From: Candidatus Saccharimonadota bacterium
Lineage (GTDB): Bacteria; Patescibacteriota; Microgenomatia; UBA1406; GWC2-37-13
DNA length: 32,000 nucleotides
NCBI GenBank assembly: GCA_001790095.1
Contig: MGBH01000001.1
Coordinates: 1,080,001-1,112,000, forward strand
Direction: 5' to 3'
Below, one piece after another: positions 3,340-24,118 of the stretch (position 1 is the first letter of the stretch; each line of letters begins with the position of its first letter). The notes beneath the pieces were generated by a model. That model was not told the DNA's origin and ran no database searches. It saw only the letters and a program-made list of their open reading frames with translations. A program made the position numbers and the translations under genes.

Positions 3340-4693
3340 AATATCTTGGTAAAAGTACATAACACAAAATAAAAAAATACTGCCAAAGTGAAAACAAAAA
3401 TAATCCATATGCGACTTGTTCTCCGTCTTTTTTTGTAAGATAGGTGAGTCCTCTCCATCCAAACATAATAAAAGGTAAAAGAATTGCCAAAAGATACCTA
3501 CCCTGAATATCGCAAGAGTACCGGTTGATTTTATATGTTGCACTTACCCCCAAGAAAAAAAGAAAAACACACAGACAGTATAGGAGGACATTTTGCCATT
3601 CAACCTTTTTTTTTGTTTTTAGATAATGGACAAATCCCATAATGATAAGAACAATAAAGGTTGAAGAATAAAACCAGAAAAAGGGTTTGAAAGGGTATGG
3701 TTCACCCCACCCCAAAAACCCCGCAAAATGAAAAAAAGCATGCCGAAACTCAAATACGATCTCAAATGGTAGTCTCAAAAGCGGTATAGAAGAGAGGTTG
3801 GCTGTACAAAACAGTGCATAAACTATGTATGACGGTGTAATACTGTGATAGGTGGTAAGAGAATAGTAAAACCAGGGAAAAAGAAGAACGAGGGAGAAAA
3901 CAATGGTCTGCGCAGCATAAAAAAAGTTTTGCTTTAACTTTTTTGTTCTCATTCCTCGTGCAATAAAGAATAAAAAGGCAAACAGAAGGAAAACAATGTT
4001 TTGGAATTTAATATAAGTGGCAACAACCACCAAAATACTTATGAAAAAGATTGTTTTCCTTGACAGCATTTTGTTTGCTGTAATTGTAAGAAATGTAAAT
4101 AAAATACCAAGCGCAAGGGCAGTTGATGCAATATCCGGATTCACTGCAATTCCCATCTTTAAGGTGACAGGGTTTACGGCAAATACAAAGACCAGATACT
4201 CACACACTTTTTTATTTTTTATGACCTTATTTATTACAAGCCACGCAAAGTATATTGCCAAAAAATAAAAAAAAGTAGACGCAAGACGAGTAGCATAATA
4301 AGTTGGAATAACCCCCCCTGTTAGACGATATACGGGGATAAAAAAAGGGAGGGCGCTTATAAAGTATAGGGGGGGGTGATGAGCTTGATATGTAAGGGGC
4401 GGGTTGTTTTGAAAAGTGGTAAAGCCTTTCATTTGTTTTACGGCATTTTGGATTTTTTGGAAGTTTGGAATATTGTGATCGTTGCTTGCAACCTCAACAA
4501 CATCATATATTTGCTTGATGGAAGGGTCAAATACATACAGTCCGGATTTTAGAGGTGTTTTGGGATAGATACCCTGAGCGAGATAATAAACATATTGAAA
4601 ATGATCCGGTTCATCATTGAGTTGAAAGGGAGGGATTGCTATAAAAAAAACAATGTACAAAAAAAGAATAAGAAAAACATACCGTTTCCTCAT
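3332..4693 (-). CDS. polytopic GT-C-type membrane glycosyltransferase-like protein (PMT/ArnT/DUF2142-like)
   Basis: More than 10 predicted TM segments. An acidic first-loop motif PPFQLNDEPDHFQYVYYLA follows TM1, as in GT-C fold enzymes. The start at 4693 forms an ATGA overlap with the stop of the upstream PT-rich gene. Confidence 0.55.
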   Translation of the reverse strand: MRKRYVFLILFLYIVFFIAIPPFQLNDEPDHFQYVYYLAQGIYPKTPLKSGLYVFDPSIKQIYDVVEVASNDHNIPNFQKIQNAVKQMKGFTTFQNNPPLTYQAHHPPLYFISALPFFIPVYRLTGGVIPTYYATRLASTFFYFLAIYFAWLVINKVIKNKKVCEYLVFVFAVNPVTLKMGIAVNPDIASTALALGILFTFLTITANKMLSRKTIFFISILVVVATYIKFQNIVFLLFAFLFFIARGMRTKKLKQNFFYAAQTIVFSLVLLFPWFYYSLTTYHSITPSYIVYALFCTANLSSIPLLRLPFEIVFEFRHAFFHFAGFLGWGEPYPFKPFFWFYSSTFIVLIIMGFVHYLKTKKKVEWQNVLLYCLCVFLFFLGVSATYKINRYSCDIQGRYLLAILLPFIMFGWRGLTYLTKKDGEQVAYGLFLFSLWQYFFILCYVLLPRYYV

Positions 4694-5127
4694 TTCGTTT
4701 TTTCGTGGATCCATGTCTTTATTTTAGGCCACAGTTGAAAGAATATGCCAAAAACAAGAATTCCTATGACTATCAGCATAATAATTTCTTTTGTGGATGG
4801 GGTCGATGATTTTGGACTGGGAGTAATTGGGGGCGCTGTAGGGGTTGTGCTAGGGGATAATTCAATAGATGGAGTGGGAAACGGTGTTTCAGTTGGTGCT
4901 GGGGTAGATGTTGGAGCGTCAGTTGGAGAAGGAGTAATGGTTGGAGTATTGGTGGGTAAGAAAAAAAGCGGAGGAATTTTTTTTATAAAAAAAGAGGTTG
5001 GTTTTGGCGTACTAGTTGGGAAAAGGAGAGGGAATTTGAGATCCCAAATATCTGCATATACATAGCTTCGTAGTGAAAGAAAATTAAAAATAAGCAGCAA
5101 GACAAACACCCCTTTTTGTATTCTCAT
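4690..5127 (-). CDS. Pro/Thr-rich surface protein with signal peptide and C-terminal TM anchor
   Basis: N-terminal signal-like MRIQKGVFVLLLIFNFLSLRSYVYA. Long PT-rich tract (PTNTPTITPSPTDAPTSTPAPTETPFPTPS...TPTAPPITPSPKSSTPST). C-terminal TM IIMLIVIGILVFGIFFQLW. Confidence 0.6.
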   Translation of the reverse strand: MRIQKGVFVLLLIFNFLSLRSYVYADIWDLKFPLLFPTSTPKPTSFFIKKIPPLFFLPTNTPTITPSPTDAPTSTPAPTETPFPTPSIELSPSTTPTAPPITPSPKSSTPSTKEIIMLIVIGILVFGIFFQLWPKIKTWIHEKTK

Positions 5128-5238: not shown

Positions 5239-5562
5239 ATGAATGTGGTAACTCTTACAAAAGATGCTTTTCCGAGAGAAGTATTAGCCTCAAAAGGTTA
5301 TGTATTTGTTGATTTCTACGCAGAGTGGTGTGGTCCATGTAAGTTAACTTCTCCCATCATTGACAGTTTAGCCGATGAGTATAAAGACATAAAGTTTTAT
5401 AAAGTAAACGTAGATGAAAACAGTGAGCTTGCTTCTCAATACTCAGTGTTTTCCATTCCAACCTTCGTTATTTTCAAAGGGGGAGAAGTGGTTGCGCAGT
5501 TTTCAGGCGCCTTAGGAAAAGAGGGCTTTGTAAAAGAAATAAAACAGGTAACAGGTGCTTAA
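5239..5562 (+). CDS. trxA: thioredoxin
   Basis: 107 aa with the WCGPCK active site, the downstream FKVNVDEN and IPTFVIFKGGE pattern, and typical thioredoxin length. Confidence 0.9.
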   Translation: MNVVTLTKDAFPREVLASKGYVFVDFYAEWCGPCKLTSPIIDSLADEYKDIKFYKVNVDENSELASQYSVFSIPTFVIFKGGEVVAQFSGALGKEGFVKEIKQVTGA

Positions 5563-5567
5563 TCCCA

Positions 5568-5987
5568 CTATCTTCTTATTACTCGTATAACCTTTCCACC
5601 AACTATCCGTAAGGTTAAATGAGCCTGTCTCAAGATAAAAATGGCAAACTCAGAAAGCCAACGGCTCGATGAATTTATCGGGTCATGCAATCCTTTTATG
5701 ACTTTTTCATCGGAGATTGGCAGTTTGACATTTTTATACGAAGAGAACTGGGAGGCGGTAGTAGGTTGAAGCCCAAGCATAGTCAGGTCGGGTGGAAGTT
5801 TGATTGTCTCATGTCTTTGTTGTACATACGGCTTGACTTCAGGGGAGACTTGGTGTTCACTCGATTCCTGCATCTGTAGGGATTCGGTTGGAATAGAAAC
5901 AGGTTCAACCTCCTTAGGCAGGCCAATAGAAGACTGTTTCCATTTCTTGATGAGATCGTCAATTGAGGTATAGTTCTTTGCGGTCAT
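5568..5987 (-). CDS. hypothetical protein (139 aa), second gene of the riboswitch-associated pair
   Basis: Non-overlapping ORF 21 nt downstream of the 402-aa gene on the same strand. Acidic/polar N-terminal half and a hydrophobic/amphipathic C-terminus (WLSEFAIFILRQAHLTLRIVGGKVIRVIRR). I recognise no family. Confidence 0.5.
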   Translation of the reverse strand: MTAKNYTSIDDLIKKWKQSSIGLPKEVEPVSIPTESLQMQESSEHQVSPEVKPYVQQRHETIKLPPDLTMLGLQPTTASQFSSYKNVKLPISDEKVIKGLHDPINSSSRWLSEFAIFILRQAHLTLRIVGGKVIRVIRR

Positions 5988-6008: not shown

Positions 6009-7217
6009 TTAAGCGCATGTTTGTCCACCCACTTCTCTGGCATACTGTTCTTTGGTGACTCCGCAGTGGGGGCAAGAGGTACGTCCTTCACCTGAGGGGA
6101 TAGGACGACCGCATTTTGGACAAGGGAAAGAATTGCTTTTTTCTTCACTTGCGTATTTCTCAAGCGGGGTTCCTTTTAATATCGCATTTATAAGGTCAGT
6201 ATTTGAAATATAGGTTTCTTTTACGTCTCCAGGAAGTGTATGGTTATGGTTTTCAACTACCGGACAGCTGCCTCCTCCTTCAACAAGGGGGCTATTCTGT
6301 TGGATCTGTTGGTATGCATACTGCATGTGCTCATTTGAAAAAGGAGAAAAGCTATATGTTTTTGTTTTAATCTTTTGAGCATATAAATAAATAATAAGAA
6401 GTATCGCCTCTGCTTGTCGTGTCTTATCTAAATAATCGAAAGTATTAGGAGGAATCCGAGTTAAGGTAAGCATGAGTGAAGTGTATACAGAGATCCATGA
6501 GGTAAGATACACTTCAATCTCTTTTTCAAACATCATTGATTGCTGGATTTTATGTTGATCTATTCCAACAGATTTAAGAAGCAAGCGTAGACTATCTTCT
6601 GGTTGAGATGGGCTAATAAATAATGGAGTTCTAAGAAAGGTCTCAGCAGTGTTAAACTCTAAAGGCGGCAGTACTCCAATATCTTGTGCGATTTGCTGGC
6701 TTTTTCTTAAGCTCCCCCTTTTTTCATCATATCTCAAAATGTATTCTTTTACTTTTCCGTTTTGTTGAGGTGCCAGCACAAACATAAATCCATAATCTGC
6801 ATCCTTTGGGGGAGAGATCCATACTGCGGTTGGTTGCTTGTCCCAATACGTTCTCTTGAATACTTCTTCAATCTTCCCAAATCCCTCTGTTTCAGCTTTT
6901 TCCCGATCATTACCCAAACTTGCTGCCTTTGTATATGAATCCATCATATGCATTCCGGCATAATCAAACCCATCCGGTTTAAGGGAGTAGGGAATAGTTG
7001 TATAGGGAACCTTTCCGACGAACTCTCCTAAGAAACGTTTTACATTTTCCTCTAGATAATAGACTTTTTCTTCATCTGGTATTTTTTCTGCCTGCTTGAG
7101 GAATTGGACCTCGTTTTCTATAGAATAATATTTAAAGATAGAGTCAGGTCGGCCCTCATATCGTGCAAGCCAAGAAGTATCAATTTCTCGCGGGTAATAA
7201 CCTGTTTCTTGTCTCAT
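6009..7217 (-). CDS. hypothetical protein with C-terminal C4 zinc ribbon (402 aa from ATG 7217)
   Basis: Long clean ORF. The C-terminus FPCPKCGRPIPSGEGRTSCPHCG is a CxxC-N12-CxxC zinc ribbon, and no obvious TM segments are present. I chose ATG 7217. The 31-codon extension in the ORF track (to 7310) is Arg/Cys-rich and coincides with the structured riboswitch-like RNA. Confidence 0.6.
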   Translation of the reverse strand: MRQETGYYPREIDTSWLARYEGRPDSIFKYYSIENEVQFLKQAEKIPDEEKVYYLEENVKRFLGEFVGKVPYTTIPYSLKPDGFDYAGMHMMDSYTKAASLGNDREKAETEGFGKIEEVFKRTYWDKQPTAVWISPPKDADYGFMFVLAPQQNGKVKEYILRYDEKRGSLRKSQQIAQDIGVLPPLEFNTAETFLRTPLFISPSQPEDSLRLLLKSVGIDQHKIQQSMMFEKEIEVYLTSWISVYTSLMLTLTRIPPNTFDYLDKTRQAEAILLIIYLYAQKIKTKTYSFSPFSNEHMQYAYQQIQQNSPLVEGGGSCPVVENHNHTLPGDVKETYISNTDLINAILKGTPLEKYASEEKSNSFPCPKCGRPIPSGEGRTSCPHCGVTKEQYAREVGGQTCA

Positions 7218-7236
7218 AAAAATCCCTGCTCGGGGT

Positions 7237-7314
7237 AAGGCAAGAGAAAGGTGTCGGACTTTACCGTTGCGGCACAGTCGCTGATTTACACAGCGTTCCC
7301 GTTTTCTCAAGCTT
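7237..7314 (-). promoter_or_regulatory. cobalamin (B12) riboswitch-like aptamer, compact variant
   Basis: The reverse complement reads AAGCUUGAGAAAACGGGAACGCUGUGUAAAUCAGCGACUGUGCCGCAACGGUAAAGUCCGACACCUUUCUCUUGCCUU. A closing helix GAGAAA/UUUCUC (7308-7303 with 7249-7244) is extended by AAGC/GC(C)UU. GGGAA is followed by the hairpin CGCUG-UGUAAAU-CAGCG. GCCGCAACGGUAA resembles CCCGCnACUGUnA, and AGUCCGACACC resembles the B12 box AGYCMGgAgaCC. It sits between a PduO-type adenosyltransferase gene and an unknown gene. Confidence 0.6.
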
Positions 7315-7369
7315 TAAACTATCTAACTTTGATTTTGATCCGTGACCATTATATACTTTTTTCCAAAAT

Positions 7370-7894
7370 TTATACGGTTTCCTCGTGCTTCGTATTATAT
7401 GTACGTGCAAGCATGAACAAAAGATCTGATAGGCGGTTAAGATAGCCAACAACAATAAGTAGTTTCTTATTTATTTTAGGTTGATTTTGCATATACGCAA
7501 CAATGTGTCGTTCAGCTCTTCGACACACAGTACGGGCAAGATGAAAAAAGACAGATATTTGAGTTCCTTGAGGGAGTATGAACTTCGAAAGAGGAGGAAG
7601 CGTTTTTGTTATTTCATCTATTTTTTTCTCAATAAGGGAAGTTTTTATATTATATCGGGTCAAGTCGATTCGGGCACCACTTACATATGCCATAATTCCG
7701 TGTAGCTGACCTTGAATATTACTCAGAAAGGCCACGTGTTGCTTGTTTGGGTGAAAAGAAATTACTATTCCTAAAACTGAAGAAAGCTCATCAAGCGAAC
7801 CATAAGCCTCTACTTGCGGATTGGCTTTAGACACCCGCTTGCCTCCATAAAGAGAGGTTGTGCCATCATCGCCAGTACGGGTATATATAGACAT
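7370..7894 (-). CDS. ATP:cob(I)alamin adenosyltransferase, PduO-type
   Basis: From ATG 7894: MSIYTRTGDDGTTSLYGGKRVSKANPQVEAYGSLDELSS..., the signature N-terminus of PduO/MMAB-type adenosyltransferases, plus ARTVCRRAER. The start lies 1 nt after the nrdJ stop codon. Confidence 0.85.
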   Translation of the reverse strand: MSIYTRTGDDGTTSLYGGKRVSKANPQVEAYGSLDELSSVLGIVISFHPNKQHVAFLSNIQGQLHGIMAYVSGARIDLTRYNIKTSLIEKKIDEITKTLPPLSKFILPQGTQISVFFHLARTVCRRAERHIVAYMQNQPKINKKLLIVVGYLNRLSDLLFMLARTYNTKHEETV

Positions 7895-7895
7895 T

Positions 7896-10253
7896 TTAAC
7901 ACTCAGAGTAACCGCATCCATAACATTTTTTACACCCTTCTTCATGGGCAAGAGATGCCTCACCGCAGGAGGGACACAGATCAAACAAACCCTTTGAGAT
8001 GGGGGGTTGTTGGATAAGAGAGGCTTGAGTGACTTCTGTGATAAGACGTGGTTCTTCCTTTTTTTCCTCTTTTTTTGCGTGGTTTCCTATCCCATAATGC
8101 ATGGAAAGTACTTTGGCTACTGCATCTGGAAGACTCCTAATTTTATCTTTTCCAAAACCAAGTGTTCTTGCTCCACCTATACCTTCAAGTTGGGAGACTA
8201 TTTCCTGAACTCTTTGCATAGCTGGAAGATGAGAGGCAAATCGTAGAGCAAGAGATATCGTTCTTCCCAAACCCTCAGCCATGGCAGATATATCTGATCC
8301 GGGCTTGCTGATGTTGATAAATACTTCAAGCGGCTCAGGGGGAGTTCCTCCATTGGTATTGATGGTTATAAATGCAACACCAACAGGAGTATTGATGCGG
8401 TAGGTAGAACCATGCACTACCATGGGGCGCGGTTTTACACTATATTGTGGCGTAGTGGGCTTTTTCTCTTCTTCTTTTTTATCTATGCGTTCCAAAACCC
8501 CTGCGCGTGATCCTTCTCTCATATATGCTATACCTTTGAGGCCTTGTTTATATGCAATACTATATAAACGTTTTACGTCTTCAACCGTGTGTGACTTTGG
8601 GGCGTTAACAGTTTTTGAGATAGAGGCATCGACATATTGTTGTATTGCGGCTTGTACAAGAATATGATCCTCGGGGGTAAGTTCGTTGGCAGACACAAAC
8701 CATTCTGGCTTTTTCAATTTGCCTTCCTTTACTTCCTTCTCATGTTTTTTTAACCATTTATCATATAAGTGGTGACGTAGTACGTGTTCACCAAGGCGAT
8801 CTTTTCTTATAAATTCAAATTCAAATACCGGTTCAATACCGGATGTGGTATCGGCCATAAGAGAGGTTGACCCAGTTGGCGCCTGCATAAGAAGGATAGA
8901 GTTACGAATCCCTGTTTGCGTGATTCCTTTTTTGATATCTTCGGGAAGTTGTTCGATAAATTTACCTTTTATATATTTATTTTTTTCAAGTTTAGGGAAG
9001 CTTCCTTTCTCCGACGCTACCTCAACAGATGTTCGGTAAGCCTCGTCTCGAATAAGTTTGTAGACTTTATTGATAAAGGTGATGGATTCTTTAGAACCAT
9101 AACGCATGTGAAGTTTGATAAGCGTATCACCAAGCCCCATGGTGCCAAGACCGATTCGTCTTTCACCCTCAAGTTGTGTCTGGCGTATTCCCTCAAAGAA
9201 ATATTGGTCCATATCAATTACATTATCCTGGAAACGCACTCCTGCACGCACGACTTTCTTTAAGCCTGAAAAGTCAAACTTTCCTTTTTTGTCTATATTA
9301 TTGCCTTTTACCAGAGCTGAAAGGTTGACAGATCCGAGATTACATACGCCCCATGGAGGAAGACCTTCTTCACCGCAAGGATTCACACAGTTTATCCTGT
9401 TCCAATACCAGTTATTATTCATTTTATTATAACGTTCCATAAAAACCACACCCGGTTCCGCTGATTTCCATGCTGCCTCTGCTATTAAATCCCAGATTTT
9501 TCGTGCCTTTACAACCTTACGTACAACGATCTTTTTCCCTAGTTTTTTCCACTCTTCAAGATCACCATTCCATTTGTCATCGTATTCAGGATCGCTGGTG
9601 TCAGGAAAAACAAGCGGCCAATCAGCATCTTTATCTACCGCCTCCATAAACGTATCAGATATGCAAAGAGACAGATTAGCTCCATTGATACGGTTTAAGT
9701 CTTGCTTGACGGTTATAAACTCCTCAATATCAGGATGCCAGTCCCAAAGCATAAGCATGAGAGCTCCACGACGGGTGCCTCCTTGTTGAATAATGTCTTT
9801 TGTCGCTACAGAAAAAAGTTCAGCCCAGTTTATGGGGCCTGAAGAAAACCCATTTACTTTACGGACTCGTGATCCTCGGGGACGAAGGGATGAGAGATTT
9901 ATTCCGACACCGCCACCTCTGGCCATGATTTCAACCATCCGTTTTAAGGTTTCCAAAATACCACCTCGAGAATCTTTAGGGCTTGGTATCACAAAACAAT
10001 TGTAAAATGTTACTTCAAAACCAGTACCTGCTCCAGCAAGAATTCGGCCACCTGGAATATATTTGAAATCCTTCATTGCCTCATAGAATTCTCTCTCCCA
10101 CTTTTTCTGATGTTCTTTTTTTTCCTTAACCGAGACTGCTTTTGCGATTCTTTTCCACATCTCACCAGGCGATTTTTCCAAAGGAGCGCCTTTTTTATCC
10201 TTAAGTGAATAACGATCAAGAAAAACCTTTTCTGATATGCCGGCGAGCTTCAT
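7896..10253 (-). CDS. nrdJ: adenosylcobalamin-dependent (class II) ribonucleotide reductase
   Basis: 785 aa with the NPCGEEGLPPWGVCNLGSVNL active-site region and SKTVNAP. The Cys-rich C-terminal tail CPSCGEASLAHEEGCKKCYGCGYSEC is typical of NrdJ. It is flanked by nrdR and a B12 adenosyltransferase gene. Confidence 0.9.
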   Translation of the reverse strand: MKLAGISEKVFLDRYSLKDKKGAPLEKSPGEMWKRIAKAVSVKEKKEHQKKWEREFYEAMKDFKYIPGGRILAGAGTGFEVTFYNCFVIPSPKDSRGGILETLKRMVEIMARGGGVGINLSSLRPRGSRVRKVNGFSSGPINWAELFSVATKDIIQQGGTRRGALMLMLWDWHPDIEEFITVKQDLNRINGANLSLCISDTFMEAVDKDADWPLVFPDTSDPEYDDKWNGDLEEWKKLGKKIVVRKVVKARKIWDLIAEAAWKSAEPGVVFMERYNKMNNNWYWNRINCVNPCGEEGLPPWGVCNLGSVNLSALVKGNNIDKKGKFDFSGLKKVVRAGVRFQDNVIDMDQYFFEGIRQTQLEGERRIGLGTMGLGDTLIKLHMRYGSKESITFINKVYKLIRDEAYRTSVEVASEKGSFPKLEKNKYIKGKFIEQLPEDIKKGITQTGIRNSILLMQAPTGSTSLMADTTSGIEPVFEFEFIRKDRLGEHVLRHHLYDKWLKKHEKEVKEGKLKKPEWFVSANELTPEDHILVQAAIQQYVDASISKTVNAPKSHTVEDVKRLYSIAYKQGLKGIAYMREGSRAGVLERIDKKEEEKKPTTPQYSVKPRPMVVHGSTYRINTPVGVAFITINTNGGTPPEPLEVFINISKPGSDISAMAEGLGRTISLALRFASHLPAMQRVQEIVSQLEGIGGARTLGFGKDKIRSLPDAVAKVLSMHYGIGNHAKKEEKKEEPRLITEVTQASLIQQPPISKGLFDLCPSCGEASLAHEEGCKKCYGCGYSEC

Positions 10254-23636: not shown

Positions 23637-24112
23637 GGGGATGCAAGGCATCGACGAGGAAATTGCACTTTTACAAACGGCGAGAGAGGTATCTATACCT
23701 TGACCCTCGTAGCCCGCAAGGGCGAAGTGGGTCGTCAAATAGAAAAAAGATAACTGCTAATTCATTTAATATGAAAAAAGCAATGCAACCTTTAGCCGAC
23801 GTTTTTGAGGAAATGCAGGCAGCAATGTTTGCACCTTCAAAATATGCGTTCGCAATGAATGCATAAGTTTGCAAAAGGTTTGCTAACCTCTTTGTAGTTT
23901 CTCCTGGTTCAACTATAAAAGAGGGTTAAACCAACCGGGATAGAGCAAACTGGCTTTTTCAGTCAGCCGGGGAGTTCGAATAAACCCTTAAACTGACAGT
24001 TCGAAAACGTCTATGTGTTCTACGTTTCGGACTGGAGTAAAGACACTTTATCTCTCGCTAAACGTTTATAAGGGTGTTTCCCCGGACCCGGGTCCAATTC
24101 CCGGCATCTCCA
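23637..24112 (+). ncRNA. ssrA: tmRNA (transfer-messenger RNA), about 476 nt without encoded CCA
   Basis: The 5' GGGGAUG pairs with the 3' CAUCUCC (24105-24111), including the G3:U wobble (Ala identity). GGCAUCGACGAGG is the 5' conserved box. The 3' UUUCCCCGGAC-CCGGG-UCCAAUU-CCCGG T-arm (24088-24104) parallels E. coli UUUCGGAC-GCGGG-UUCAACU-CCCGC. An A-rich single strand ...GAUAACU precedes a GCU resume-type codon at 23756. The in-frame stop UAA is at 23864-23866. Confidence 0.85.
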
Positions 24113-24118
24113 CACTCC

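What the first reader, a model, noticed from the sequence alone, without database searches (positions are those of the whole stretch)
7218..7353. Compact cobalamin-riboswitch-like RNA between the B12 adenosyltransferase gene and an unknown gene
The 152-nt spacer on the minus strand is visibly more GC-rich than other spacers, and it folds into a riboswitch-like architecture. Read as the reverse complement of 7237-7314, it gives AAGCUU-GAGAAA-AC-GGGAA-[CGCUG UGUAAAU CAGCG]-ACUGUGCCGCAACGGUAA-AGUCCGACACC-UUUCUC-UUGCCUU.

- **Closing helix:** GAGAAA/UUUCUC closes the element, extended by AAGC/GC(C)UU across a UU/UU internal loop.
- **Core match:** the core lines up with the published B12-element consensus as I remember it. 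GGGAA-N3-GGUGnAAnnCC corresponds to GGGAA-CGC-UGUGUAAAUCA here. CnGnnCCCGCnACUGUnA corresponds to CUGUGCCGCAACGGUAA here.
- **B12 box:** AGYCMGgAgaCC corresponds to AGUCCG-ACACC here.
- **Missing region:** the long P6 peripheral extension is absent, as in the short AdoCbl-variant/class II riboswitches.
- **Flanks:** a TATAAT (minus strand, 7353-7348) lies about 30 nt upstream. Downstream, CCCCGAGCAGGGAUUUUU-AUG places the only SD-like AGGGA (7227-7223) in a small hairpin just before ATG 7217.
- **Context:** class II RNR and a PduO-type adenosyltransferase lie directly upstream.
Basis: partly seen in the sequence, partly recalled or inferred. Interest (0 to 1): 0.8.

Follow-up and report, generated by a model that had tools for sequence, protein, structure and literature searches.

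The report
Compact B12 riboswitch controlling unknown genes
The spacer holds a genuine, unusually compact vitamin-B12 riboswitch that most likely shuts off translation of two uncharacterised genes, and the same RNA-gene pairing recurs in every related genome checked, marking those genes as new candidates for B12 biology in ultra-small (CPR) bacteria.

Summary
The observation and the interpretation are both confirmed. Rfam's AdoCbl-II model (RF01689) matches window 7311-7241 (minus strand) end to end at 41.4 bits, above the 36.5-bit cutoff (E 8.5e-7).

In every related locus I could fetch, a cobalamin aptamer sits just 5' of the same gene. Some are short, like this one. Others carry a small P6 hairpin or the full class-I extension. 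Covariation supports the fold: 89% of cells are paired, 17 of 22 pairs show double changes, and 0 of 500 shuffles reach this.

Its loop CG-A-GCA is complementary to aptamer loop L5 (UGCCG). Three loci with L5 UACCG have CG-N-GUA instead. I infer a B12-stabilised L5-L13 kissing loop that blocks the ribosome-binding site, as in the env8 switch. No terminator is present.

The architecture is Cbl-IIb-like, so AdoCbl is the likely ligand, but this is not proven.

The switch controls a 402-aa protein (X) and a co-conserved 139-aa protein (Y). Both are restricted to Microgenomates/Roizmanbacteria-type CPR bacteria, have no Pfam family, and (for X) no structural match despite a confident model. They lie beside NrdR, B12-dependent RNR, PduO and thioredoxin.

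The RNA is a new member of a known class. The regulated genes are the real lead.

The parts
7241..7311 (-). Cobalamin riboswitch aptamer (Rfam RF01689 AdoCbl-II match; four-way junction P3-P6 closed by P1)
   Evidence: 41.4 bits against a 36.5-bit cutoff, model 1-81; own model, 80.4 bits; covariation.
7303..7308 (-). P1 5' strand GAGAAA. It pairs with UUUCUC at 7249-7244. The AC at 7302-7301 is the vestigial J1/3.
   Evidence: sequence. helix 1: 6 of 6 pairs with changes on both sides; present in the MFE of the trimmed RNA.
7279..7295 (-). P4-L4 hairpin: CGCUG (7295-7291), UGUAAAU loop (7290-7284), CAGCG (7283-7279)
   Evidence: helix 3: 99.4% paired, 4 of 5 pairs compensatory; recovered by RNAalifold on a raw MAFFT alignment.
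7268..7276 (-). P5-L5: UG/CA stem with loop UGCCG (7274-7270), the kissing-loop donor
   Evidence: L5 is UGCCG in 31 of the 34 distinct sequences and UACCG in L003, L006 and L028; complementarity to the platform loop.
7250..7266 (-). P6 (CGG 7266-7264 / CCG 7257-7255) with a 6-nt L6 and no extension, then J6/3 ACA and P3' CC (B12-box region AGUCCGACACC)
   Evidence: (helix 5). One search shows 33-49 nt hairpins inserted here in L001, L045, L046 and L047, but none in the window or L048.
7236..7243 (-). J1/13 single-stranded linker UUGCCUUA (5-8 nt, depending on where P1 ends)
   Evidence: orthologues with a directly attached platform have 4-7 nt here. PMC5028336 reports 7 nt in env8.
7224..7235 (-). 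P13 regulatory hairpin: CCC (7235-7233), loop CGAGCA (7232-7227), GGG (7226-7224). The loop is complementary to L5 with A7230 bulged.
   Evidence: CCC-CG(N)GCA-GGGA is conserved after both short and long aptamers, and the stem covaries (CCU/AGG in L015 and L016); 29 of 35 loci match; hairpin -4.7 kcal/mol and L5-L13 duplex -7.9 kcal/mol.
7223..7227 (-). Shine-Dalgarno-like AGGGA. GGG forms the 3' arm of P13, 5 nt before the AUG.
6009..7217 (-). Regulated gene X: 402 aa, ATG at 7217, uncharacterised family, C-terminal CPxC...CPxC zinc ribbon, invariant GGSCP cysteine
   Evidence: The start is supported by non-conserved N-termini and by 402-aa calls of the same gene.
5568..5987 (-). Gene Y: 139 aa, starts 21 nt after X's stop codon, co-conserved with X, probably co-transcribed
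   Evidence: present downstream of X in nearly all loci long enough..
7348..7353 (-). TATAAT hexamer, a possible -10 box (unverified)
   Evidence: One search finds no full promoter.: -10-like hexamers upstream of the aptamer in most orthologues (27 of 35 distinct upstream regions).
7370..7894 (-). PduO-type ATP:cob(I)alamin adenosyltransferase (likely ATG at 7894, one base after the RNR stop codon)
   Evidence: PF01923, 3e-51; TIGR00636, 4.5e-47
7896..10253 (-). Ribonucleotide reductase large-subunit homologue with TSCPD domain and C-terminal Cys-rich tail. I read the architecture and locus as class II (NrdJ); no class-specific model was run.
5239..5562 (+). Thioredoxin, convergent with X-Y and conserved in this position

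Best explanation
Window 7311-7241 (minus strand) is a functional class-II cobalamin riboswitch aptamer. It has a Cbl-IIb-like minimal architecture: a four-way junction P3-P6 closed by P1, J1/3 reduced to a 2-nt bulge, and no P6 extension.

The proposed mechanism is as follows. When cobalamin is bound, most likely adenosylcobalamin, loop L5 (UGCCG, 7274-7270) docks onto the loop of the downstream P13 hairpin (CG-A-GCA, 7232-7227). The 3' arm of P13 is the Shine-Dalgarno GGG(A). The ligand-stabilised kissing loop locks the ribosome-binding site 5 nt upstream of AUG 7217 and represses translation of gene X, and probably of the downstream gene Y.

When B12 is scarce the kissing loop undocks, the weak 3-bp P13 stem opens, and X-Y is made. 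X-Y is therefore a B12-limitation response module. My best guess is that it acts in cobalamin acquisition or intracellular processing upstream of PduO.

- **Shown:** membership of the RNA family, the fold with covariation, conservation of the RNA-gene linkage, and conservation and complementarity of the platform.
- **Inferred:** ligand identity, the direction and level of regulation, and the function of X-Y.
For: **RNA family and fold**
- The RF01689 hit is above the gathering score.
- My own covariance model finds exactly one match in each of 37 sources, including the four loci that Rfam missed, and in four further close relatives. Wherever both were mapped, the match lies 5' of X on the same strand.
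- 89.2% of cells are paired and 17 of 22 pairs have double changes. 0 of 500 shuffles reach this, and slid controls give 28-45%.
- RNAalifold recovers P4 and P6 on an alignment that was not fitted to the structure.

**Expression platform**
- The motif CCC-CG(N1-3)GCA-GGGA-N6-9-AUG is conserved behind both short and long aptamers, and its stem covaries.
- 29 of 35 distinct loci carry an exact L5 complement with a 1-3 nt bulge, against about 0.27 expected per 150 nt.
- The three loci with L5 UACCG have loop CG-N-GUA, a G-C to A-U exchange.
- The predicted duplex energy is -7.9 kcal/mol.
- No terminator-like site lies between pduO and the ATG on the minus strand.

**Published mechanism**
- The env8 switch needs L13 presented in a stem-loop, at least one unpaired L13 nucleotide and a linker of about 7 nt (PMC5028336). 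All three features are present here.
- Cbl-IIb is defined by a short or paired J1/3, a short P6 hairpin and AdoCbl binding (PMC7367189). The nearest relatives L001, L045, L046 and L047 have exactly that hairpin.

**Genomic context**
- The order NrdR-NrdJ-PduO-(DUF4430-DUF6580)-riboswitch-X-Y, with convergent thioredoxin, recurs across loci.
- In L015, DUF4430-DUF6580 precede the switch with no RNR nearby.
Against: - No ligand-binding or expression data exist.
- Single-sequence MFE folding of the 131-nt region does not reproduce the consensus and is not unusually stable (z = -0.44). The consensus fold is about 6 kcal/mol above the MFE for the aptamer. This is expected for a fold stabilised by ligand and tertiary contacts, but it gives no support.
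- The J1/3 T-loop that buttresses the pocket in Cbl-IIa is missing and so is the P6 hairpin of Cbl-IIb. I cannot say what supports J6/3.
- The kissing-loop covariation probably reflects a single evolutionary event in one clade (L003, L006, L028/L029).
- L5 U7274 and G7270 are drawn as a U-G pair in the Rfam model, so the kissing loop may be 3 bp rather than 5.
- X has no detectable homology or structural neighbour, so its role is guilt by association only.
Confidence: 0.85

Rival explanations
1. The aptamer is real but senses methyl- or hydroxocobalamin (Cbl-IIa-like selectivity) or is promiscuous, rather than being AdoCbl-selective.
For: RF01689 is the family of the env8 HyCbl switch. The window, like Cbl-IIa, ends P6 in a simple loop. 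Class-II selectivity is reported to span a broad spectrum and to hinge on small changes in peripheral elements (PMC6158498 and PMC7367189).
Against: The bulged J1/3 T-loop that defines Cbl-IIa and contacts the ligand is deleted here. The nearest relatives have the Cbl-IIb short hairpin. Orthologous positions in other lineages hold full class-I aptamers. The locus makes and uses AdoCbl (PduO and NrdJ).
Confidence: 0.3
2. The stretch is protein-coding: it is the N-terminal extension of gene X from TTG 7310, as in the 433-aa database gene call, and the RNA resemblance is incidental.
For: An open frame runs from TTG 7310. The representative database call P0001, and P0202, use it.
Against: Family N-termini are unconserved until about residue 25 of the 402-aa form. 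The conserved nucleotides are read in different frames in different loci: CKSATVPQR is off-frame in the window, while CESATVPQR is in P0009's called N-terminus. Compensatory base-pair changes are present. An SD and ATG sit at 7217, and other callers give 402 aa.
Confidence: 0.02
3. The riboswitch acts at the level of transcription or mRNA decay rather than by occluding the ribosome-binding site, or it is a decayed, non-functional relic.
For: [quoted passage not shown] The window aptamer scores only about 5 bits above the Rfam cutoff and lacks two peripheral elements.
Against: There is no terminator-like hairpin with a U-tract in the platform. The SD-containing P13 hairpin is conserved across about 40 loci. 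Core positions are invariant and helices covary, which indicates purifying selection.
Confidence: 0.1
4. X-Y is not a cobalamin acquisition or processing module. It is a B12-independent bypass or sparing system for deoxynucleotide supply, switched on when the B12-dependent RNR cannot work.
For: X-Y sits in the RNR locus between nrdR-nrdJ-pduO and thioredoxin in nearly all loci. From my own knowledge, B12 riboswitches classically repress B12-independent isozymes such as metE and nrdAB/nrdDG. X has an invariant loop cysteine, a Cys-rich C-terminal ribbon and a near-terminal cysteine, which recalls RNR redox tails.
Against: The X model has a small antiparallel sheet plus helices, not an RNR barrel. 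In L015 X-Y follows DUF4430-DUF6580 with no RNR nearby. No homology to any nucleotide-metabolism family was found.
Confidence: 0.15

Closest known systems
Rfam RF01689 AdoCbl-II (formerly AdoCbl-variant) riboswitch; prototype env8 HyCbl, Cbl-IIa, PDB 4FRN
   Same: Full-length match above the gathering score. It has the four-way junction P3-P6, the T-loop-type L4 and L6, no long P6 extension, a B12 box, a short J1/13 linker, and an L5-L13 kissing loop with L13 presented by a stem-loop at the ribosome-binding site.
   Different: The J1/3 internal loop (7 nt in the model, forming a T-loop that contacts J6/3 and the ligand) is reduced to an AC bulge. The kissing loop has one unpaired L13 nucleotide and all Watson-Crick pairs. 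The AdoCbl-variant alignment instead has two strictly conserved unpaired purines and an A-G pair. The SD lies in the 3' arm of P13 rather than in L13. The host is a CPR bacterium rather than marine plankton (the latter is from my own knowledge).
Cbl-IIb cobalamin riboswitches (AdoCbl-binding class II), as defined in PMC7367189 Fig. 1
   Same: A short mismatched or paired J1/3 and a small P6 region. The closest relatives (L001, L045, L046, L047) have the typical short P6 hairpin. The AdoCbl-centred gene context also fits.
   Different: The window and L048 lack even the short P6 hairpin. Ligand preference is untested.
Rfam RF00174 Cobalamin (class I, AdoCbl) riboswitch
   Same: It occupies the orthologous position upstream of X in 23 fetched loci. 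It shares an identical L5 and nearly identical J4/5-P5 and J6/3 sequence, and the same CCC-CG(N)GCA-GGGA platform, including a variable number of unpaired kissing-loop nucleotides.
   Different: Class I has the P2 arm and the long P6 (P7-P11) extension that forms the adenosyl pocket. The window has neither.
B12-riboswitch control of B12-related unknown genes and of B12-independent isozymes (classical B12 regulon logic)
   Same: An OFF switch placed in front of genes needed only when B12 is scarce. This rests on my own knowledge of Nahvi 2002, Vitreschak 2003 and Rodionov 2003, which are cited within PMC5028336.
   Different: The regulated proteins X and Y belong to no described family, transporter or isozyme.

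Membership tests
Rfam RF01689 AdoCbl-II / class-II cobalamin riboswitch | Covariance-model score at or above the curated gathering threshold over the full model | tested here: met
   41.4 bits against 36.5, model 1-81 of 81, E 8.5e-7
Rfam RF01689 AdoCbl-II / class-II cobalamin riboswitch | Helices P1, P3, P4, P5 and P6 of the four-way junction supported by base-pair covariation | tested here: met
   17 of 22 pairs with double changes, 0 of 500 shuffles reach this, P4 99.4% paired. P4 and P6 recovered without the model.
Rfam RF01689 AdoCbl-II / class-II cobalamin riboswitch | No long P6 peripheral extension and no P2 arm | tested here: met
   L6 is 6 nt (7263-7258) and P1 runs directly into P3
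Rfam RF01689 AdoCbl-II / class-II cobalamin riboswitch | L5-L13 kissing loop to a stem-loop that carries the ribosome-binding site | tested here: met
   Complementarity in 29 of 35 loci, G-C to A-U exchange in 3 loci, P13 stem covariation. This is sequence evidence only, with no structure probing.
Cbl-IIa subclass (env8 type; HyCbl/MeCbl) | Bulged J1/3 internal loop forming a T-loop that contacts J6/3 and the ligand | tested here: not met
   Five consensus J1/3 positions are deleted in the Rfam alignment and only AC (7302-7301) is left unpaired
Cbl-IIa subclass (env8 type; HyCbl/MeCbl) | Two strictly conserved unpaired purines in L13 within the kissing loop | tested here: not met
   Under my pairing there is one unpaired A (7230). 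The number varies from 1 to 3 among orthologues.
Cbl-IIb subclass (AdoCbl) | Short mismatched or paired J1/3 | tested here: met
   GAGAAA/UUUCUC, then an AC bulge, then GG/CC. Several orthologues have a continuous 9-11 bp P1-P3 helix.
Cbl-IIb subclass (AdoCbl) | Small P6 extension, typically a short hairpin | tested here: not met
   Absent in the window and L048. Present as 33-49 nt inserts in L001, L045, L046 and L047, with about 30-nt and about 60-nt inserts in L009 and L035.
Any cobalamin riboswitch | Direct, selective binding of a cobalamin and ligand-dependent regulation | not testable with these tools
   Needs ITC, in-line probing and reporter assays
Rfam RF00174 Cobalamin (class I) | P2 arm and long P6 (P7-P11) extension | tested here: not met
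   RF01689 outscores RF00174 in the clan competition in the window. There is no sequence room, since the aptamer is 71 nt.

The most novel reading that the evidence does not exclude
X-Y, the riboswitch-controlled pair with a confidently predicted fold that has no detectable structural relative, may be a previously unknown way for Microgenomates to survive B12 scarcity without their B12-dependent RNR. No other RNR was seen in the loci examined, but whole genomes were not checked. X-Y could be a B12-independent route to deoxynucleotides or a functional bypass of NrdJ, rather than a mere uptake accessory.

A milder version is more likely, at roughly 0.45: X-Y is a new cobalamin trafficking or processing module that feeds PduO.
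Probability: 0.1. Interest if true: 0.85.

Novelty: new member of a known kind. Interest (0 to 1): 0.45.

Why it matters
The riboswitch itself extends a well-known class into CPR (Patescibacteria) genomes. I found no prior report of this in the searchable literature.

It is one of the smallest natural cobalamin aptamers, at 71 nt with neither a J1/3 T-loop nor a P6 hairpin. Orthologous positions hold every intermediate up to full class I. That gives a natural series for asking which peripheral elements are really needed for binding and selectivity.

More importantly, the RNA flags two uncharacterised, CPR-restricted protein families as members of the B12 regulon. Family X has about 530 representatives at 50% identity. 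Both families are tightly linked to the B12-dependent RNR, which is presumably essential for DNA synthesis in these reduced genomes, to PduO and to a putative B12 binder/permease pair. This turns how CPR bacteria obtain or do without B12 into a directly testable question with named candidate genes.

It also exposes systematic gene-start errors, where database calls translate the riboswitch.

Tried and rejected
- **Family libraries:** Pfam, NCBIfam, PADLOC, PHROGs and PDB-sequence profile searches of X and Y gave only generic zinc-ribbon matches.
- **Domain fusions:** ten longer family members carry no Pfam domain. Their extra N-terminal length may be the same kind of start miscall.
- **Coding-extension hypothesis (TTG 7310):** rejected.
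- **Transcription attenuation:** rejected for lack of a terminator.
- **Sigma-70 promoter:** the scan does not call one in the spacer. Upstream -10-like hexamers are common in orthologues but uninformative in AT-rich DNA.
- **Single-sequence folding:** uninformative (z = -0.44). The MFE instead pairs L5 UGCCG with CGGUA of P6/L6. I note this as a possible apo-state trap but did not pursue it.
- **Literature:** searches for CPR cobalamin riboswitches, DUF6580 and B12-regulon unknowns found nothing relevant.
Full report
**1.

GC is 0.49-0.50 across 7200-7319. It is 0.30-0.35 over 7280-7399 on the 5' side and about 0.35-0.44 in the adjacent coding sequence on the 3' side.

A scan of the whole 32-kb window against all Rfam families at curated thresholds returns two hits. 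One is a tmRNA. The other is RF01689 (AdoCbl-II, clan CL00101) at 7311-7241 on the minus strand: 41.4 bits against a 36.5-bit cutoff, model positions 1-81 of 81, E 8.5e-7. Restricted to the spacer, E is 7.2e-9.

Pfam and NCBIfam confirm the context:
- NrdR
- an RNR large-subunit homologue with a TSCPD domain. I read its architecture and locus as class II, but no class-specific model was run.
- a PduO-type adenosyltransferase
- downstream, a convergent thioredoxin

**2. It is a conserved, covarying RNA and not coding sequence**

The downstream ORF has no Pfam, NCBIfam or PDB-sequence match. It does have about 75 clusters of relatives, and those with names are Roizmanbacteria, Microgenomates or Patescibacteria MAGs.

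The database representative of the window's own protein is called from TTG 7310 at 433 aa, which overlaps the aptamer. The family alignment argues against that start. N-termini are unconserved up to the SIFxYYSxxNE motif, and other gene callers give 402 aa. In addition, P0009's called N-terminus contains CESATVPQR, while the window's aptamer encodes CKSATVPQR in a different frame. What is conserved is therefore the nucleotide sequence, not a reading frame.

I fetched 38 loci that encode relatives of this protein. Rfam at gathering thresholds finds a cobalamin riboswitch on the same strand, directly 5' of the gene, in 34 of the 37 scanned. Eleven are RF01689 and 23 are RF00174.

A covariance model built from the short-class members finds exactly one match in every one of 37 sources. 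These include L001, L013, L035 and L038, which Rfam missed because of an insertion in P6.

On the resulting alignment:
- 89.2% of cells form standard pairs.
- 17 of 22 pairs show changes on both sides.
- None of 500 column shuffles reaches the observed values.
- Sliding the 3' partners drops pairing to 28-45%.
- The P1 helix has double changes at all six pairs.

RNAalifold on a plain MAFFT alignment, not fitted to any structure, independently recovers P4 and P6 with compensatory changes.

**3. Anatomy in the window (minus-strand coordinates)**

| Element | Coordinates and sequence |
|---|---|
| P1 | GAGAAA 7308-7303 with UUUCUC 7249-7244 |
| J1/3 | AC 7302-7301 only |
| P3 | GG 7300-7299 with CC 7251-7250 |
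| J3/4 | GAA |
| P4 | 7295-7291 with 7283-7279, closing L4 UGUAAAU |
| P5 | UG/CA, closing L5 UGCCG 7274-7270 |
| P6 | CGG 7266-7264 with CCG 7257-7255, closing a 6-nt L6 |
| J6/3 | ACA |
| J1/13 | UUGCCUUA 7243-7236 |
| P13 | CCC 7235-7233 with GGG 7226-7224, loop CGAGCA 7232-7227 |
| SD | (A)GGGA 7227-7223 |
| Start codon | AUG 7217 |

**4. How it most likely works**

The platform motif CCC-CG(N1-3)GCA-GGGA-N6-9-AUG follows both short- and long-class aptamers in most loci. The P13 stem covaries: L015 and L016 have CCU/AGG.

The loop's CG...GCA is the reverse complement of L5 UGCCG, interrupted by one to three unpaired nucleotides. An exact match of this kind is present in 29 of 35 distinct loci, against about 0.27 expected per 150 nt. 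The remaining six loci have near-variants.

The three loci whose L5 is UACCG (L003, L006, L028) have CG-N-GUA. This is a G-C to A-U exchange at the centre of the proposed duplex. It is probably a single evolutionary event. The predicted duplex energy is -7.9 kcal/mol.

This is the architecture established experimentally for the env8 switch. There, cobalamin packs against an L5-L13 kissing loop. L13 must be presented by a stem-loop, at least one unpaired L13 nucleotide is required, and the J1/13 linker is 7 nt (PMC5028336).

No terminator-like element lies in the platform. I therefore infer a translational OFF switch. This would work whether the RNA is made from its own promoter or by read-through from nrdR-nrdJ-pduO. 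The TATAAT at 7353-7348 exists, but the promoter scan does not support it. -10-like hexamers upstream of the aptamer are common in orthologues but weakly informative.

**5. Which kind of cobalamin riboswitch**

By the published scheme (PMC7367189 Fig. 1):
- Cbl-I has a P2 arm and a long P6 extension.
- Cbl-IIa has a bulged J1/3 and a P6 loop.
- Cbl-IIb has a short mismatched or paired J1/3 and a short P6 hairpin, and binds AdoCbl.

The window lacks five J1/3 consensus positions. It therefore fails the Cbl-IIa J1/3 T-loop criterion. Its kissing loop has one unpaired nucleotide, not the two purines strictly conserved in the AdoCbl-variant alignment.

Four of the five closest relatives of gene X (54-62% identity: L001, L045, L046, L047) carry a 33-49 nt hairpin in P6, which is the Cbl-IIb form. 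The window and L048 carry none. More distant orthologues carry the full class-I extension.

The window is thus a hairpin-less Cbl-IIb-like aptamer within a continuum. AdoCbl is the most likely ligand, given the architecture, the neighbours and the AdoCbl-making and AdoCbl-using locus. Class-II selectivity is known to be labile, so I put this at about 0.6.

**6. What it controls**

Gene X (7217-6009, 402 aa) is followed 21 nt later by gene Y (5987-5568, 139 aa).

- **Synteny.** tblastn across all loci shows the order NrdR, NrdJ, PduO, (0-2 genes), riboswitch, X, Y, convergent thioredoxin wherever the contig is long enough.
- **Inserted genes.** In four loci with Pfam gene tables (L039, L041, L042, L015) these are a DUF4430 protein and a polytopic DUF6580 membrane protein. 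The DUF4430 protein has a signal or anchor sequence, and the domain is shared with the C-terminus of transcobalamin-type B12 binders (PMC4350170).
- **L015.** That pair precedes the riboswitch-X-Y unit with no RNR nearby.
- **Family X.** It has 532 representatives at E <= 1e-3 in a 1.84-billion-protein library.
- **Structure of X.** The AlphaFold model is confident: pLDDT 86.9 and pTM 0.80 for the full protein, and pLDDT 88.2 for the N-terminal domain. It shows an alpha/beta domain, a helical domain, a flexible loop carrying the invariant GGSCP cysteine, and a CPxC...CPxC zinc ribbon. Neither model has a significant Foldseek neighbour in the PDB or BFVD.
- **Sequence profiles.** Only the zinc ribbon gives weak matches.
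- **Family Y.** It is likewise CPR-restricted and unannotated, with a strongly conserved C-terminal segment.
- **Exclusions.** Neither protein matches defence or phage families.

By the usual B12-regulon logic, an OFF switch means the product is needed when B12 is low. Combined with the linkage to PduO and DUF4430/DUF6580, my best guess is a role in cobalamin acquisition or processing (about 0.45). A B12-independent bypass of the RNR is a less likely but more exciting alternative (0.10-0.15).

**7. Verdict**

The finding is correct and well supported. The RNA is a new member of a known riboswitch class. It is notable for its minimal architecture and for sitting in a natural short-to-long series at one orthologous position.

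The most valuable outcome is the strict riboswitch-X-Y association. It nominates two structurally unassigned CPR protein families as B12-responsive.

I found no prior description in the searchable literature.

Noticed in passing
window 23637-24115 (+): An unusually long tmRNA (about 479 nt against a 374-position model) with large insertions (Rfam 78.3 bits, accuracy 0.69). ARAGORN predicts an atypical tag, VRNECISLQKVC*, which may be a misprediction.
   Followed up: partly
window 7218-7310 (-), and the called N-termini of P0001, P0202, P0009 and probably other long family members: Public gene calls start gene X at TTG 7310 (433 aa) and translate the riboswitch. P0009's N-terminus (CESATVPQR) is likewise translated aptamer. 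This is a systematic annotation error for the family.
   Followed up: yes
window 7255-7278 (-): In single-sequence MFE folds, L5 UGCCG pairs with CGGUA of P6/L6, and GACU pairs with AGUC. This forms an alternative hairpin about 6 kcal/mol more stable than the junction fold. It could be an apo-state trap that hides L5, or merely a by-product of the conserved core.
   Followed up: no
L039 6797-7761, L041 6976-7916, L042 6914-7863, L015 3007-3926: A DUF4430 (signal-anchored, transcobalamin-like domain) plus DUF6580 (polytopic membrane protein) gene pair sits between pduO and the riboswitch in several lineages. It is a candidate CPR B12 uptake system. It lies upstream of the riboswitch rather than behind it, and is absent from this position in the window.
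   Followed up: partly
L011 1490-3124 and L040 6289-7833: A divergent PurF-like amidophosphoribosyltransferase homologue (TIGR01134, 222 bits, below its 350-bit cutoff in L011) is inserted between pduO and the riboswitch in some loci.
   Followed up: no
L036, L018, L009, L012, L013 (between P1 and P13): Some orthologues insert 12-45 nt between the aptamer and the conserved P13 platform, partly G+C-rich and self-complementary by eye. This lengthens J1/13 well beyond the 5-8 nt seen in the window. Its effect on kissing-loop kinetics or on transcription is unknown.
   Followed up: no
L005, L007, L027, L030, L031 platforms: A variant platform, ACA-CGAGCCA-UGU followed by a duplicated AUGUCC, lacks an obvious SD and places an AUG in the P13 stem. 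L003, L006 and L028 similarly put the start codon in a CCA/UGG stem. These appear to be start-codon rather than SD sequestration variants.
   Followed up: partly
window 7892-7898 (-): The likely PduO start (ATG 7894) lies one base after the RNR stop codon (7898-7896). This suggests translational coupling of nrdJ and pduO. The longer TTG-initiated ORF listed from 7984 overlaps the RNR gene and is probably not used.
   Followed up: partly
window 4690-5127 (-): A 145-aa ORF with an N-terminal hydrophobic segment, a Pro/Thr/Ser-rich low-complexity middle (PTSTPAPTETP...) and a C-terminal hydrophobic segment. It has no Pfam match and looks like a surface or cell-envelope protein.
   Followed up: no
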